The notes beneath the pieces were generated by a model. That model had not been told where the DNA came from, searched no databases, and was given only the letters and a program-made list of their open reading frames with translations. The position numbers were made by a program, and so were the translations under genes. From Escherichia coli (GTDB taxonomy: Bacteria; Pseudomonadota; Gammaproteobacteria; Enterobacterales; Enterobacteriaceae): a DNA stretch of 64,000 nucleotides. Below are positions 38,915 to 43,892 of the stretch, in pieces; within the stretch, counting starts at the first letter, position 1, and every line of letters begins with the position of its first letter. Where the stretch lies: assembly GCF_001677475.2 (NCBI RefSeq), contig NZ_CP015229.1. One strand, written 5' to 3'.

Positions 38915-40615
38915 GTGATTGTTAAACGACCCGTCTCGGCCAGTCTGGCCCGGGCCTTTTTTTACATTGTGCTGCTGTCGATTCTTTCCACGGGTATCGC
39001 TCTGCTAACTCTGGCGAGCAGTTTGCGCGATGCTGAGGCTATCAATATTGCCGGATCGCTGCGTATGCAGAGTTACCGCCTGGGCTACGACTTGCAAAGT
39101 GGCAGTCCACAACTCAATGCACATCGCCAGTTATTTCAGCAGGCACTGCATTCACCGGTATTAACCAACCTCAACGTCTGGTATGTGCCAGAAGCAGTAA
39201 AAACTCGCTATGCGCATCTGAATGCCAACTGGCTGGAGATGAATAATCGGCTCAGCAAGGGCGATTTGCCGTGGTATCAGGCCAATATTAATAATTATGT
39301 TAATCAGATAGACCTGTTCGTGCTGGCTTTACAGCACTACGCTGAACGCAAAATGCTGCTGGTGGTGGCGATTTCCCTGGCTGGCGGCATCGGTATTTTC
39401 ACGCTGGTCTTTTTTACTTTGCGCCGCATACGCCATCAGGTGGTTGCCCCGCTGAATCAGCTGGTTACCGCCAGTCAGCGTATTGAACACGGGCAGTTCG
39501 ACTCGCCGCCGCTGGATACCAGCCTGCCGAATGAGCTTGGCCTGCTTGCAAAAACCTTTAACCAGATGTCGAGCGAGCTGCATAAATTGTACCGTTCGCT
39601 GGAGGCGTCAGTAGAAGAAAAAACTCGCGATCTCCACGAGGCCAAGCGTCGTCTGGAGGTGTTGTATCAGTGTTCGCAGGCGCTGAACACCAGCCAGATT
39701 GATGTGCATTGTTTCCGCCATATTTTGCAGATTGTTCGCGACAATGAAGCGGCTGAATACCTGGAGTTAAATGTCGGTGAAAACTGGCGGATTAGCGAAG
39801 GGCAACCAAACCCGGAATTGCCGATGCAGATTTTACCGGTGACAATGCAAGAGACGGTTTACGGCGAACTGCACTGGCAAAATAGTCACGTTTCATCATC
39901 AGAACCGCTGCTTAACAGTGTTTCGTCGATGCTGGGACGCGGTTTGTACTTTAATCAGGCGCAGAAGCATTTTCAGCAGTTATTGTTGATGGAAGAACGT
40001 GCGACCATCGCCCGCGAATTGCACGACTCGCTGGCTCAGGTACTTTCTTACTTACGTATCCAGTTGACGTTACTGAAGCGTTCGATACCGGAAGATAATG
40101 CCACCGCACAAAGTATCATGGCCGATTTTTCCCAGGCGCTGAATGATGCTTATCGGCAGTTACGCGAGCTGTTAACTACTTTCCGCCTGACGCTGCAGCA
40201 GGCGGATCTCCCCTCCGCGTTGAGGGAAATGCTGGATACGTTACAAAATCAAACCAGCGCCAAACTGACCCTCGACTGCCGTCTGCCAACCCTGGCGCTG
40301 GATGCGCAAATGCAGGTGCATTTGTTGCAAATTATTCGCGAAGCGGTGCTGAATGCGATGAAGCACGCCAACGCCAGCGAAATCGCCGTTAGCTGCGTCA
40401 CCGCGCCGGATGGCAATCACACAGTCTATATTCGCGACAACGGGATTGGCATCGGTGAACCGAAAGAACCCGAAGGCCATTATGGTCTGAATATCATGCG
40501 CGAACGCGCGGAAAGATTGGGTGGGACGCTGACTTTTTCGCAACCTTCCGGCGGCGGCACGTTAGTGAGTATTAGCTTTCGCTCTGCGGAGGGTGAGGAA
40601 AGTCAGCTGATGTAA
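38915..40615 (+). CDS. narQ: Nitrate/nitrite sensor histidine kinase; GTG start
   Basis: 566 aa from (V)IVKRPVSASLARAFFYIVLL with HAMP and histidine-kinase domains; matches NarQ. Confidence 0.9.
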   Translation: MIVKRPVSASLARAFFYIVLLSILSTGIALLTLASSLRDAEAINIAGSLRMQSYRLGYDLQSGSPQLNAHRQLFQQALHSPVLTNLNVWYVPEAVKTRYAHLNANWLEMNNRLSKGDLPWYQANINNYVNQIDLFVLALQHYAERKMLLVVAISLAGGIGIFTLVFFTLRRIRHQVVAPLNQLVTASQRIEHGQFDSPPLDTSLPNELGLLAKTFNQMSSELHKLYRSLEASVEEKTRDLHEAKRRLEVLYQCSQALNTSQIDVHCFRHILQIVRDNEAAEYLELNVGENWRISEGQPNPELPMQILPVTMQETVYGELHWQNSHVSSSEPLLNSVSSMLGRGLYFNQAQKHFQQLLLMEERATIARELHDSLAQVLSYLRIQLTLLKRSIPEDNATAQSIMADFSQALNDAYRQLRELLTTFRLTLQQADLPSALREMLDTLQNQTSAKLTLDCRLPTLALDAQMQVHLLQIIREAVLNAMKHANASEIAVSCVTAPDGNHTVYIRDNGIGIGEPKEPEGHYGLNIMRERAERLGGTLTFSQPSGGGTLVSISFRSAEGEESQLM

Positions 40616-40690
40616 TGCCTCTTATTGACCAAAGAATAGTGGCACTTAAGGTTCAGTATAAAAGGGCATGATAATTTACATTAACTCCTT

Positions 40691-40708
40691 TTTTTCTCCA
40701 CGATTGGC
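40691..40708 (+). promoter_or_regulatory. BaeR response-regulator binding box in the acrD promoter
   Basis: tttttctccacgattggc matches the published BaeR consensus TTTTTCTCCATDATTGGC; 70 bp upstream of the acrD ATG. Confidence 0.6.
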
Positions 40709-40778
40709 TCGTACCTTGCCGCTACAGTGAAGCAAGTCAAGCCTACAACGATACGCAGAAACACGAGGTCCTCTTTTA

Positions 40779-43700
40779 ATGGCGAATTTCTTTATTGATC
40801 GCCCCATTTTTGCCTGGGTGCTGGCAATCCTGTTGTGTCTGACAGGTACCCTGGCGATTTTTTCATTGCCCGTTGAACAATACCCCGATCTCGCGCCACC
40901 GAATGTGCGAGTGACCGCTAACTATCCCGGCGCATCGGCCCAGACGCTGGAAAACACCGTGACCCAGGTTATCGAGCAAAATATGACCGGCCTCGATAAT
41001 CTGATGTATATGTCGTCTCAGAGCAGTGGTACCGGTCAGGCATCTGTCACTTTAAGTTTTAAAGCAGGCACCGATCCGGACGAAGCCGTGCAGCAAGTAC
41101 AAAACCAGCTGCAATCAGCCATGCGAAAGTTACCGCAGGCGGTGCAAAATCAGGGCGTGACGGTGCGTAAAACCGGCGATACCAACATTCTGACCATTGC
41201 CTTCGTCTCTACCGATGGTTCGATGGATAAACAGGATATTGCTGATTATGTTGCCAGTAATATTCAGGACCCGTTAAGCCGCGTGAATGGCGTCGGGGAT
41301 ATCGATGCCTATGGTTCGCAATATTCCATGCGTATCTGGCTGGACCCGGCGAAACTCAACAGTTTCCAGATGACGGCTAAAGATGTCACTGATGCCATTG
41401 AGTCACAGAACGCGCAGATTGCGGTTGGGCAACTTGGTGGTACACCTTCCGTCGATAAGCAGGCGCTCAACGCCACCATTAACGCCCAGTCACTGCTGCA
41501 AACACCAGAACAGTTCCGCGATATCACCTTGCGGGTGAATCAGGACGGCTCAGAGGTAAGGCTGGGCGATGTCGCCACCGTCGAAATGGGGGCGGAGAAA
41601 TACGATTATCTTAGCCGCTTCAATGGTAAACCAGCCTCCGGGCTGGGGGTAAAACTGGCCTCCGGCGCGAACGAAATGGCGACAGCGGAGCTGGTACTCA
41701 ATCGTCTCGACGAGCTGGCGCAGTATTTTCCACACGGACTGGAATACAAGGTGGCGTATGAAACCACCTCGTTTGTTAAAGCCTCCATTGAAGACGTGGT
41801 GAAAACGCTGCTGGAAGCTATCGCCCTGGTTTTCCTCGTTATGTATCTGTTCCTGCAAAACTTCCGCGCCACGCTGATACCCACTATCGCCGTGCCGGTG
41901 GTGTTGATGGGAACCTTCTCCGTACTATACGCCTTCGGTTACAGCGTCAACACATTAACCATGTTCGCGATGGTGCTGGCGATCGGTCTGCTGGTGGATG
42001 ATGCCATCGTGGTGGTGGAAAACGTCGAACGTATTATGAGTGAGGAAGGACTCACTCCTCGCGAAGCCACACGTAAATCGATGGGGCAGATCCAAGGGGC
42101 ACTAGTCGGGATTGCGATGGTTCTTTCGGCGGTATTTGTACCAATGGCCTTCTTCGGCGGCACCACCGGTGCCATCTATCGCCAGTTCTCTATTACCATT
42201 GTTGCGGCGATGGTGCTGTCTGTACTGGTAGCGATGATCCTCACTCCGGCTCTGTGTGCCACGCTACTTAAGCCACTGAAAAAAGGTGAGCATCACGGGC
42301 AAAAAGGCTTTTTTGCCTGGTTTAACCAGATGTTTAACCGCAACGCCGAACGCTACGAAAAAGGGGTGGCGAAAATTCTCCATCGTAGCCTGCGCTGGAT
42401 TGTGATTTATGTCCTGTTGCTTGGCGGCATGGTGTTCCTGTTCCTGCGTTTGCCGACGTCGTTCTTACCGCTGGAAGACCGGGGCATGTTTACTACCTCG
42501 GTACAATTGCCCAGCGGTTCAACCCAACAACAGACCCTGAAAGTCGTTGAGCAAATCGAGAAATATTACTTCACCCATGAAAAAGACAACATCATGTCGG
42601 TGTTTGCCACCGTTGGCTCTGGCCCTGGGGGCAACGGGCAAAACGTGGCGCGAATGTTTATCCGCCTGAAAGACTGGAGCGAACGCGACAGTAAGACCGG
42701 CACCTCATTTGCCATTATTGAACGTGCAACGAAGGCGTTTAACAAGATTAAAGAAGCTCGCGTTATCGCCAGCAGCCCGCCAGCAATTAGCGGTCTTGGC
42801 AGTTCTGCGGGTTTTGATATGGAGTTGCAGGACCACGCTGGAGCGGGTCACGATGCGCTGATGGCAGCACGTAACCAGTTGCTGGCGCTGGCGGCGGAAA
42901 ACCCGGAGCTAACCCGTGTGCGCCATAACGGCCTCGACGACAGTCCGCAGTTGCAGATTGATATCGACCAGCGTAAAGCTCAGGCGCTGGGCGTTGCTAT
43001 CGACGATATTAACGACACACTGCAAACCGCCTGGGGTTCGAGCTATGTGAATGACTTTATGGATCGCGGTCGCGTGAAGAAAGTCTATGTGCAGGCAGCT
43101 GCGCCGTATCGCATGCTGCCAGATGACATTAATCTCTGGTATGTCCGAAATAAAGATGGCGGCATGGTGCCCTTCTCTGCTTTCGCGACCTCACGCTGGG
43201 AGACAGGCTCACCGCGTCTGGAACGCTATAACGGTTATTCTGCGGTTGAGATTGTTGGGGAAGCCGCACCGGGGGTCAGTACCGGTACGGCGATGGATAT
43301 TATGGAATCGTTAGTGAAGCAGCTGCCAAACGGCTTTGGTCTGGAGTGGACGGCGATGTCGTATCAGGAGCGGCTTTCCGGCGCGCAGGCTCCGGCGCTG
43401 TACGCCATTTCCTTGCTGGTGGTATTCCTGTGTCTGGCGGCGCTGTATGAAAGCTGGTCGGTGCCGTTCTCGGTAATGCTGGTCGTGCCGCTGGGGGTTA
43501 TCGGCGCGCTGCTGGCAACCTGGATGCGCGGGCTGGAAAACGACGTTTACTTCCAGGTGGGCCTGTTAACGGTCATTGGTTTATCGGCGAAAAACGCCAT
43601 CCTGATCGTCGAGTTTGCTAACGAGATGAACCAAAAAGGCCACGACCTGTTTGAAGCGACGCTCCACGCCTGCCGTCAGCGTTTACGCCCGATTCTGATG

Positions 43701-43892
43701 ACCTCGCTGGCATTTATCTTCGGCGTATTGCCAATGGCAACCAGCACGGGTGCCGGTTCCGGTGGTCAGCATGCGGTGGGTACTGGCGTAATGGGCGGGA
43801 TGATTTCGGCCACTATTCTGGCTATTTACTTCGTGCCGCTGTTCTTTGTGCTGGTGCGCCGCCGCTTCCCGCTGAAGCCGCGCCCGGAATAA
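40779..43892 (+). CDS. acrD: RND-family aminoglycoside/multidrug efflux pump
   Basis: 1037 aa, 12-TMS RND transporter; matches AcrD. Confidence 0.96.

What the first reader, a model, noticed from the sequence alone, without database searches (positions are those of the whole stretch)
40691..40708. Intact BaeR box upstream of acrD
tttttctccacgattggc fits the BaeR binding consensus, consistent with envelope-stress (BaeSR/CpxAR) control of this aminoglycoside efflux pump. It is a known type of site but worth recording as a confident regulatory assignment made from sequence alone.
Basis: established knowledge. Interest (0 to 1): 0.25.

Follow-up and report, generated by a model that had tools for sequence, protein, structure and literature searches.

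The report
Known BaeR box in acrD promoter
The 18-base sequence is really there and is the already published binding box for the envelope-stress regulator BaeR in front of the E. coli drug-efflux gene acrD, so it is a correct but ordinary annotation.

Summary
TTTTTCTCCACGATTGGC lies at 40691-40708 (+), 88-71 nt upstream of the acrD ATG, in the narQ-acrD intergenic region of an E. coli chromosome. It matches the published BaeR consensus (Nishino 2005) at 17 of 18 positions; about 2e-4 such matches are expected by chance per window. It is identical in K-12, so it is the published acrD site itself, one of the few sites the consensus summarises.

Independent support comes from 57 acrD orthologue loci in about 25 genera. 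The box core is the most conserved upstream element there (TTTCTCC in 53/57 loci; 0/23 paralogue controls).

The conserved unit is larger than reported, about 34 bp (40672-40705). It holds a TTTAC element and two 11-bp direct repeats (TCTCCnnnwTT). A conserved -10 (TACAGT, 40723-40728) follows at a fixed distance, and there is no -35 match. This is the layout of a PhoB-like activator site that replaces the -35. The 3' GGC is not conserved.

Caveats: a K-12 ChIP-exo study found no BaeR peak at acrD, although acrD fell about 7.5-fold in a baeR knockout. No TSS has been mapped. No canonical CpxR box is present.

Verdict: observation confirmed, interpretation supported, already known, low interest.

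The parts
40691..40708 (+). The reported 18-mer TTTTTCTCCACGATTGGC, a BaeR box in the sense of Nishino 2005
   Evidence: Sequence read. It has 1 mismatch to the consensus and is the only hit in the window. It is identical in K-12 and shares TTTTTCTCC-N3-ATTGGC with the K-12 mdtA and spy boxes.
40695..40705 (+). Promoter-proximal 11-bp repeat TCTCCACGATT, the best-conserved BaeR half-site. Its last six bases occupy the -35 position.
   Evidence: It is TCTCCACGwTT in 46 of 48 anchored orthologue loci, at about 2 bits per column. It matches 6 of the 7 specified bases of the Yamamoto 2008 half-site TCTNCANAA. The most widely shared upstream 7-mers map here.
40684..40694 (+). Upstream 11-bp repeat ACTCCTTTTTT, exactly 11 bp from the proximal repeat. 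Inferred to be the second BaeR half-site; degenerate in E. coli.
   Evidence: It is TCTyC-T-rich in 48/48 anchored loci at a constant 11-bp offset. The window and K-12 have A at 40684, where all 48 anchored loci have T. It matches 3 of the 7 specified bases of TCTNCANAA, against 4-7 in other species.
40673..40683 (+). Conserved AATTTACATTA element (TTTAC at 40675-40679). It may be a third phased unit or a single CpxR-type half-site (GTAAA on the - strand). What binds it is not determined.
   Evidence: TTTAC is invariant in the anchored loci (partly by construction), and the flanking columns are 0.8-1.9 bits. ATTTACA is found in 45/57 orthologue loci versus 1/23 paralogue loci. No full CpxR box is present.
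40723..40728 (+). Predicted -10 hexamer TACAGT of the BaeR-dependent acrD promoter
   Evidence: TAnAGT-type hexamers (TAAAGT 19, TACAGT 17, TAGAGT 8, TACATT 2, TAAGGT 2) sit at a constant +27 from the C of CTCCACG in 48/48 anchored loci, while the distance to the ATG ranges from about 80 to 300 nt. The bases at the -35 position (ACGATT, 40700-40705) match TTGACA at 2/6. The generic promoter scan found nothing because there is no -35.
40734..40736 (+). Predicted transcription start, inferred from the -10 position. Not experimentally mapped.
   Evidence: Inference from the usual spacing between -10 and TSS. No TSS is recorded here in Kim 2012.
40765..40768 (+). Shine-Dalgarno GAGG of acrD
   Evidence: Sequence read.
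40779..43892 (+). acrD coding sequence (RND multidrug/aminoglycoside efflux permease, 1037 aa), the regulated gene
   Evidence: ORF. RefSeq annotates the 100%-identical matches as AcrD. The K-12 annotation agrees.

Best explanation
The 18-mer is the promoter-proximal part of the BaeR operator of the acrD promoter. Shown here: the box core belongs to a module of about 34 bp (40672-40705), conserved across Enterobacterales, made of a TTTAC element and two 11-bp direct repeats (TCTCCnnnwTT; ACTCCTTTTTT and TCTCCACGATT in this window). A conserved TAnAGT -10 hexamer (40723-40728) follows after a fixed 17-nt gap, and there is no -35 match. Inferred: phosphorylated BaeR, an OmpR/PhoB-family winged-helix regulator, binds the two repeats as a head-to-tail dimer centred near -41. 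It takes the place of the missing -35 element and recruits sigma-70 RNA polymerase, as PhoB does at pho boxes. Envelope stress (indole, copper, zinc, ethanol) then switches on acrD. The upstream TTTAC element probably binds an auxiliary factor, with CpxR the leading candidate. That would fit reports that CpxR only enhances BaeR-dependent acrD expression.
For: The sequence matches the published consensus at 17/18, with 2e-4 such matches expected by chance. It is identical to K-12, and TTTTTCTCC-N3-ATTGGC is shared, in the same orientation relative to the gene, with the K-12 mdtA and spy boxes. The mdtA box lies inside a BaeR ChIP-exo peak (2153931-2153967 versus box 2153945-2153962). The literature lists acrD among the four reported BaeR sites and describes BaeR as an OmpR/PhoB-family dimer. 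In K-12 RNA-seq, acrD has log2FC -2.9 (p 2e-39) in a baeR knockout under ethanol and no change when unstimulated. For phylogenetic footprinting, 51/57 acrD orthologue loci carry CTCCA[CT]G upstream, versus 0/23 paralogue loci. The other six carry near variants, and 56/57 match a relaxed module pattern. Information content is about 2 bits over 40672-40705 and at the -10, against 0-0.4 bits in the flanks. In an unbiased test, the most widely shared 7-mers map to 40693-40696. The module stays with acrD in 32 loci that have no narQ upstream. The 11-bp phasing and fixed -10 spacing hold in 48/48 anchored loci. E. amylovora BaeR shifts the acrD upstream fragment, and BaeR overexpression induces acrD 3.8-fold. 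Related regulators (DzrR/AdeR type) footprint on CTCCAT direct repeats 11 bp apart.
Against: BaeR ChIP-exo in K-12 under 5% ethanol gave no peak upstream of acrD, and the authors classified acrD as indirectly regulated. At spy, the ChIP-exo peaks do not cover the 18-mer box; they cover a distal TCTNCANAA tandem, so the 18-mer alone may not be the real determinant. The upstream repeat is a poor half-site in E. coli, matching 3 of 7 specified bases. No TSS has been mapped at the predicted position, so the -41 geometry is an inference. I could not read the primary binding papers. Part of the conservation (CTCCA[CT]G and TTAC) was imposed by my anchoring, although the k-mer test did not depend on it.
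Confidence: 0.82

Rival explanations
1. The box resembles a BaeR site but BaeR does not occupy it in E. coli cells. BaeR would control acrD indirectly, through another regulator or through envelope physiology.
For: K-12 ChIP-exo showed no BaeR peak at acrD, while mdtA and spy gave peaks, and the authors drew this conclusion. The upstream half-site in E. coli carries a lineage-specific A at an otherwise invariant T.
Against: A 34-bp module with BaeR-type direct repeats is conserved at a fixed distance from a -10 in about 25 genera, which is hard to explain without a bound activator. acrD falls about 7.5-fold in the baeR knockout, only under induction, in parallel with mdtA and spy. BaeR binds the orthologous E. 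amylovora fragment in vitro. Other papers describe the regulation as direct. A ChIP-exo negative under one condition with a signal-to-noise cutoff is weak evidence of absence.
Confidence: 0.1
2. The conserved module is mainly the operator of a different OmpR-family regulator (CpxR, or an OmpR/RstA-like protein that recognises TTTACA), and its resemblance to BaeR boxes is secondary.
For: TTTAC (GTAAA on the - strand) is invariant and adjoins the repeats. acrD also drops in a cpxR knockout (log2FC -1.9). A CpxR site was predicted just upstream in Salmonella.
Against: No GTAAA-N5-GTAAA match better than shuffled controls was found; the best has 3 mismatches, which is the median of the shuffles. 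The most conserved bases are the TCTCC repeats shared with mdtA and spy, not GTAAA. CpxR's effect on acrD is reported to depend strictly on BaeR.
Confidence: 0.06
3. The box is a chance match with no function.
For: None beyond the fact that a consensus match is not evidence of function.
Against: Only 2e-4 such matches are expected per window. The box is identical in at least 98% of the E. coli genome records that match. It is the most conserved upstream element across orthologues and is absent from paralogues.
Confidence: 0.01

Closest known systems
BaeR boxes of the E. coli mdtABCD-baeSR and spy promoters (Nishino 2005 consensus TTTTTCTCCATDATTGGC)
   Same: All three share TTTTTCTCC-N3-ATTGGC in the same orientation toward the gene. 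All three genes are BaeR-dependent under ethanol stress. A TTTCA/TTTAC element and a second CTCC unit lie one helical turn upstream at mdtA as well.
   Different: The central triplet differs: ACG at acrD, CTT at mdtA, ATA at spy. The repeat spacing is 11 bp at acrD and 10 bp at mdtA. The distance to the ATG is 88, 71 and 156 nt respectively. mdtA and spy gave ChIP-exo peaks and acrD did not.
Yamamoto 2008 BaeR half-site TCTNCANAA (from the spy promoter)
   Same: The proximal acrD repeat TCTCCACGA matches 6 of the 7 specified bases. spy carries such units phased at 11 bp, and the distal pair lies under a ChIP-exo peak.
   Different: The upstream acrD unit in E. coli (ACTCCTTTT) matches only 3 of 7. 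In Erwinia, Pantoea and Brenneria the same unit (TCTCCTCAA) matches 6 of 7.
PhoB pho box / OmpR-family class II promoters (established knowledge)
   Same: Both have two 11-bp direct repeats bound by a head-to-tail response-regulator dimer. The operator sits in place of a missing -35, at a fixed distance upstream of a recognisable -10 (for the acrD anatomy).
   Different: The half-site sequence differs (TCTCC versus CTGTCAT), as does the regulator. For acrD, the TSS and the contacts with RNA polymerase are inferred, not shown.
DzrR/AdeR-type operators (CTCCAT direct repeats, PMC10052836)
   Same: Both have a CTCCA-type half-site repeated at 11 bp in front of an RND efflux operon, footprinted for DzrR.
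   Different: The regulator is a different paralogue (DzrR is closest to AdeR, not BaeR). A baeR deletion did not affect desAB induction in Dickeya.

Membership tests
BaeR-binding site (Nishino 2005 18-mer box) | Sequence match to TTTTTCTCCATDATTGGC | tested here: met
   17/18, the only hit in the window. All 15 positions invariant among the K-12 mdtA, spy and acrD boxes are present. The test is partly circular, because acrD is one of the founding sites.
BaeR-binding site (Nishino 2005 18-mer box) | Located upstream of, and oriented toward, a gene whose expression depends on BaeR | tested here: met
   The box is at -88 to -71 from the acrD ATG on the coding strand, as at mdtA and spy. acrD has log2FC -2.9 in a baeR knockout under ethanol (published data).
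BaeR-binding site (Nishino 2005 18-mer box) | Physical binding of BaeR to this DNA | not testable with these tools
   The literature is mixed. acrD is listed as a reported BaeR site and described as directly regulated. EMSA was positive for the E. amylovora orthologue. K-12 ChIP-exo was negative. The primary E. coli binding papers are not held.
BaeR-binding site (Nishino 2005 18-mer box) | Conservation in orthologous promoters | tested here: met
   The core TTTCTCCACGwTT is conserved in 51-57 of 57 orthologue loci and 0/23 paralogue loci. The 3' GGC is not conserved.
OmpR/PhoB-family operator (tandem direct repeats) | Two half-sites in direct orientation about 10-11 bp apart | tested here: met
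   TCTyC at -12 to -8 and TCTCC at -1 to +3 relative to the anchor, an 11-bp offset, in 48/48 anchored loci. In this window the upstream unit is degenerate (ACTCC).
Activator-dependent sigma-70 promoter with the operator overlapping -35 (class II) | Recognisable -10, no -35 match, operator at a fixed distance from the -10 | tested here: met
   TACAGT lies at 40723-40728, 17 nt after the proximal repeat. The spacing is invariant in 48/48 loci. The -35 position reads ACGATT, 2/6. The generic scan finds no complete promoter.
Activator-dependent sigma-70 promoter with the operator overlapping -35 (class II) | Experimentally mapped TSS about 7 nt downstream of the -10 | tested here: inconclusive
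   Kim 2012 lists only a 3-read TSS 624 nt upstream, inside narQ, under non-inducing growth. The Cappable-seq supplement is truncated. Thomason 2015 is not held.
CpxR box (GTAAA-N5-GTAAA) | Tandem GTAAA pentamers 5 bp apart in the acrD upstream region | tested here: not met
   The best match in 40616-40778 has 3 of 10 mismatches, equal to the median of 2000 shuffles. Only a single conserved GTAAA is present, on the - strand (TTTAC, 40675-40679).

The most novel reading that the evidence does not exclude
E. coli proper carries a derived T-to-A change at 40684, the first base of the upstream BaeR half-site. That position is T in all 48 anchored orthologue loci, including E. albertii and a cryptic Escherichia clade. 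If this weakens cooperative BaeR binding, it would explain why K-12 shows no ChIP-exo peak at acrD despite strong BaeR-dependent expression. It would also explain why acrD induction in E. coli relies on help from CpxR. That would be a lineage-specific retuning of an ancient operator.
Probability: 0.15. Interest if true: 0.3.

Novelty: already known. Interest (0 to 1): 0.1.

Why it matters
acrD encodes the RND pump that exports aminoglycosides and some beta-lactams, so its induction by envelope stress through BaeSR contributes to adaptive drug tolerance. The site itself was published in 2005, so recording it adds nothing new. The follow-up does sharpen the annotation in four ways. The functional unit is a module of about 34 bp with two 11-bp repeats placed over the -35 position. 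It is conserved across the Enterobacterales. The 3' GGC of the textbook consensus is not conserved among acrD orthologues outside Escherichia and a few Citrobacter and Enterobacter. One published in vivo dataset disagrees with direct binding, which a simple footprint or ChIP-qPCR could settle.

Tried and rejected
1. Primary papers. Nishino 2005, Nishino 2007, Hirakawa 2005 and Leblanc 2011 are not held, so I could not compare the site with the published footprint. The consensus and site list come from papers that cite them.
2. Experimental TSS. Kim 2012 has no TSS at the predicted promoter. The Cappable-seq GTF was truncated when stored. Thomason 2015 is not held.
3. The generic sigma-70 promoter and terminator scan of 40500-40900 found nothing. 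This is expected for a promoter without a -35, so it does not count against the model.
4. A 32-nt megablast query across the box returned no match, presumably because the low-complexity filter masks the T-run. The 60-mer query was used instead.
5. An Rfam scan of 40500-40900 at E<=1 gave no hit, so I rejected an RNA-element reading.
6. No canonical CpxR box is present beyond chance, so I rejected assigning CpxR control from the sequence.
7. I considered that the T allele at 40684 might segregate within E. coli. No complete genome has it in an otherwise identical 60-mer. The 'E. coli' locus that carries it (L005) is only 91% identical over 6.2 kb and is a cryptic clade.
8. A literature search for DAP-seq or SELEX data on BaeR at acrD found nothing relevant.

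Full report
Observation. Window 40691-40708 (+) reads TTTTTCTCCACGATTGGC, exactly as reported. The flanking ORFs are a sensor-kinase gene ending at 40615 and a 1037-aa ORF at 40779-43892. A 601-nt query across the junction is 100% identical to many E. coli chromosomes, where RefSeq annotates narQ and acrD. K-12 MG1655 has the same arrangement. The box therefore lies 88 to 71 nt upstream of the acrD ATG. It is the only match in the 64-kb window to the published consensus TTTTTCTCCATDATTGGC at up to 3 mismatches, and it has one mismatch, C for T at position 11. Under an iid model, 2e-4 matches at <=1 mismatch are expected in the window.

What the consensus is. The consensus is attributed to Nishino et al. 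2005 by three papers I could read. Bury-Moné et al. [quoted passage not shown] I fetched the K-12 promoters. mdtA has TTTTTCTCCCTTATTGGC, spy has TTTTTCTCCATAATTGGC and acrD has TTTTTCTCCACGATTGGC, each oriented toward its gene. The K-12 acrD box is identical to the window's. The four differences between the two intergenic regions all lie within 26 nt of the narQ stop. 'Fits the consensus' is partly circular, because acrD is one of the few sites the consensus summarises. Within E. coli the site is almost invariant: the exact 60-mer 40655-40714 is present in 5317 of 5401 matching complete-genome records.

Independent evidence from related genomes. A scan of one genome per species with AcrD residues 1-400 returned 57 loci at 75-100% identity (acrD orthologues from about 25 genera, Escherichia to Yersinia, Serratia, Erwinia, Hafnia and Rahnella). 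It also returned 23 loci at 62-65% identity, paralogous RND pumps that I used as controls. CTCCA[CT]G occurs within 320 nt upstream in 51/57 orthologue loci and in 0/23 paralogue loci. The six remaining loci carry near variants such as CTTCACG or ATCCACG in the same context, and 56/57 match a relaxed module pattern. In a test that does not depend on my anchor, the 7-mers shared by most orthologue upstream regions are TTTCTCC (53/57), TTCTCCA (51), CTCCACG (50) and TCTCCAC (48). All map to 40693-40696, and none occurs in the paralogue loci. The module stays with acrD in 32 loci that have no narQ in the upstream flank.

Anatomy. With 48 loci anchored on CTCCA[CT]G, information content is close to 2 bits from 40672 to 40705 and at TA.AGT (40723-40728). 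It is 0-0.4 bits in the flanks. The columns of the anchor itself and of TTAC are conserved by construction; about 20 other columns are not. The conserved block reads AATTTACAyTw / TCTCCTyWWTT / TCTCCACGwTT, three 11-nt units, the last two being a clear direct repeat. In the window these are AATTTACATTA (40673-40683), ACTCCTTTTTT (40684-40694) and TCTCCACGATT (40695-40705). The reported 18-mer therefore consists of the T-rich tail of the upstream repeat, the whole proximal repeat, and GGC. The GGC is not conserved outside Escherichia and a few Citrobacter and Enterobacter. The triplet ACG, which the consensus treats as variable, is essentially invariant among acrD orthologues. The proximal repeat matches 6 of the 7 specified bases of the other published BaeR half-site, TCTNCANAA (Yamamoto 2008, quoted). 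The E. coli upstream repeat matches only 3 of 7. A TAnAGT hexamer follows the proximal repeat after exactly 17 nt in 48/48 loci, although the distance to the ATG ranges from about 80 to 300 nt. The bases at the -35 position (ACGATT) match TTGACA at 2/6, which explains why the generic promoter scan found nothing. No Rfam family matches the region.

Mechanism. The shown facts are a tandem 11-bp repeat operator, fixed in phase with a -10 and replacing the -35, in front of a gene that is BaeR-dependent. The rest is inferred from established knowledge of OmpR/PhoB-family regulators; BaeR is described as such a dimer. BaeR-P would bind head to tail on 40684-40705, centred near -41 relative to a predicted start at about 40735. 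It would then recruit RNA polymerase, as PhoB does at pho boxes. Published K-12 RNA-seq shows acrD at log2FC -2.9 (p 2e-39) in a baeR knockout under 5% ethanol and unchanged without stress. mdtA (-4.0) and spy (-5.8) behave in parallel. In E. amylovora, purified BaeR shifts a 246-bp acrD upstream fragment, and BaeR overexpression induces acrD 3.8-fold. Regulators of the DzrR/AdeR group footprint on CTCCAT repeats 11 bp apart in front of RND operons, which supports the half-site assignment. The factor that binds the invariant TTTAC is unresolved. It is GTAAA on the other strand, a CpxR-type pentamer, but the intergenic region holds no GTAAA-N5-GTAAA better than shuffled sequence. The CpxR site predicted for Salmonella (GTAAA-agcgc-ATGAT) reads ATAAA-agggc-ATGAT in E. 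coli. CpxR's effect on acrD is reported to depend strictly on BaeR, and acrD falls by log2 1.9 in a cpxR knockout.

Evidence against. The one in vivo binding dataset I could read (ChIP-exo, K-12, 5% ethanol) reports no BaeR peak upstream of acrD and calls the regulation indirect. In the same dataset the mdtA box lies inside a peak (2153931-2153967 versus box 2153945-2153962). At spy, however, neither peak covers the 18-mer box (1825764-1825781). One peak covers the distal TCTTCATAATC-TCTGCAAAATC tandem. So the 18-mer alone is not a reliable predictor of occupancy in that dataset, and the negative result at acrD may be a sensitivity issue. It still has to be recorded. No TSS has been mapped at the predicted promoter.

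A small unexpected point. Position 40684 is A in the window, in K-12 and in essentially all complete E. coli genomes; one search gives the A-allele 60-mer in 5317 records. No record has the T-allele 60-mer. The same position is T in all 48 anchored orthologue loci. These include E. albertii and a locus labelled E. coli that is only 91% identical over 6.2 kb and so belongs to a cryptic clade. E. coli proper has therefore changed the first base of the upstream half-site. I have not tested whether this matters.

Comparison and verdict. The element is a member of the known family of BaeR boxes and is in fact one of its founding members. It works like a PhoB-type operator that replaces the -35. It is already known, and interest is low. 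The follow-up adds the true extent of the conserved operator, its repeat structure and promoter geometry, the non-conservation of GGC, and the disagreement with one ChIP-exo study.

Noticed in passing
window 40684: A in the window, in K-12 and in at least 98% of matching E. coli genome records. It is T in all 48 anchored acrD orthologue loci, including E. albertii and a cryptic Escherichia clade. This is a derived change at the first base of the upstream BaeR half-site.
   Followed up: partly
window 40706-40708: The 3' GGC of the textbook BaeR 18-mer is not conserved among acrD orthologues (0.07-0.46 bits). The 'variable' central ACG is nearly invariant.
   Followed up: yes
L002 2265-2348 (K-12 spy promoter, 1825764-1825847): The published BaeR ChIP-exo peaks at spy (1825677-1825711 and 1825823-1825843) do not cover the 18-mer box (1825764-1825781). 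The distal peak coincides with a TCTTCATAATC-TCTGCAAAATC tandem 11 bp apart.
   Followed up: partly
L084 about 2500 (equivalent to window 40674/40675): In E. coli strain DETEC-E480, an ISEcp1 transposition unit carrying plasmid-type genes (FinO, an ANR-family regulator, a truncated thermonuclease) is inserted immediately 5' of the TTTAC element. The two repeats and the -10 remain next to acrD.
   Followed up: partly
window about 40155 (inside narQ): Kim 2012 assigns acrD a weak 3-read TSS 624 nt upstream of its ATG, inside narQ. No intrinsic terminator was found between narQ and acrD, so some read-through into acrD is possible.
   Followed up: no
L001 532-563 (K-12 mdtA promoter): mdtA has the same layout (TTTCA, then CTCCA, then CTCCC), but the two CTCC units are 10 bp apart rather than 11. 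Candidate -10 hexamers (TACACT, TAGTAT) lie 5-10 bp closer to the box than at acrD, so the register of the box relative to the -10 may differ between the two promoters.
   Followed up: no
L013-L060, 32 loci: narQ is not the upstream neighbour of acrD in 32 of 57 orthologue loci, and the Kim 2012 orthologue table lists no Klebsiella counterpart of narQ (b2469) between the neighbours of acrD. The narQ-acrD adjacency is therefore lineage-specific, while the promoter module is not.
   Followed up: partly
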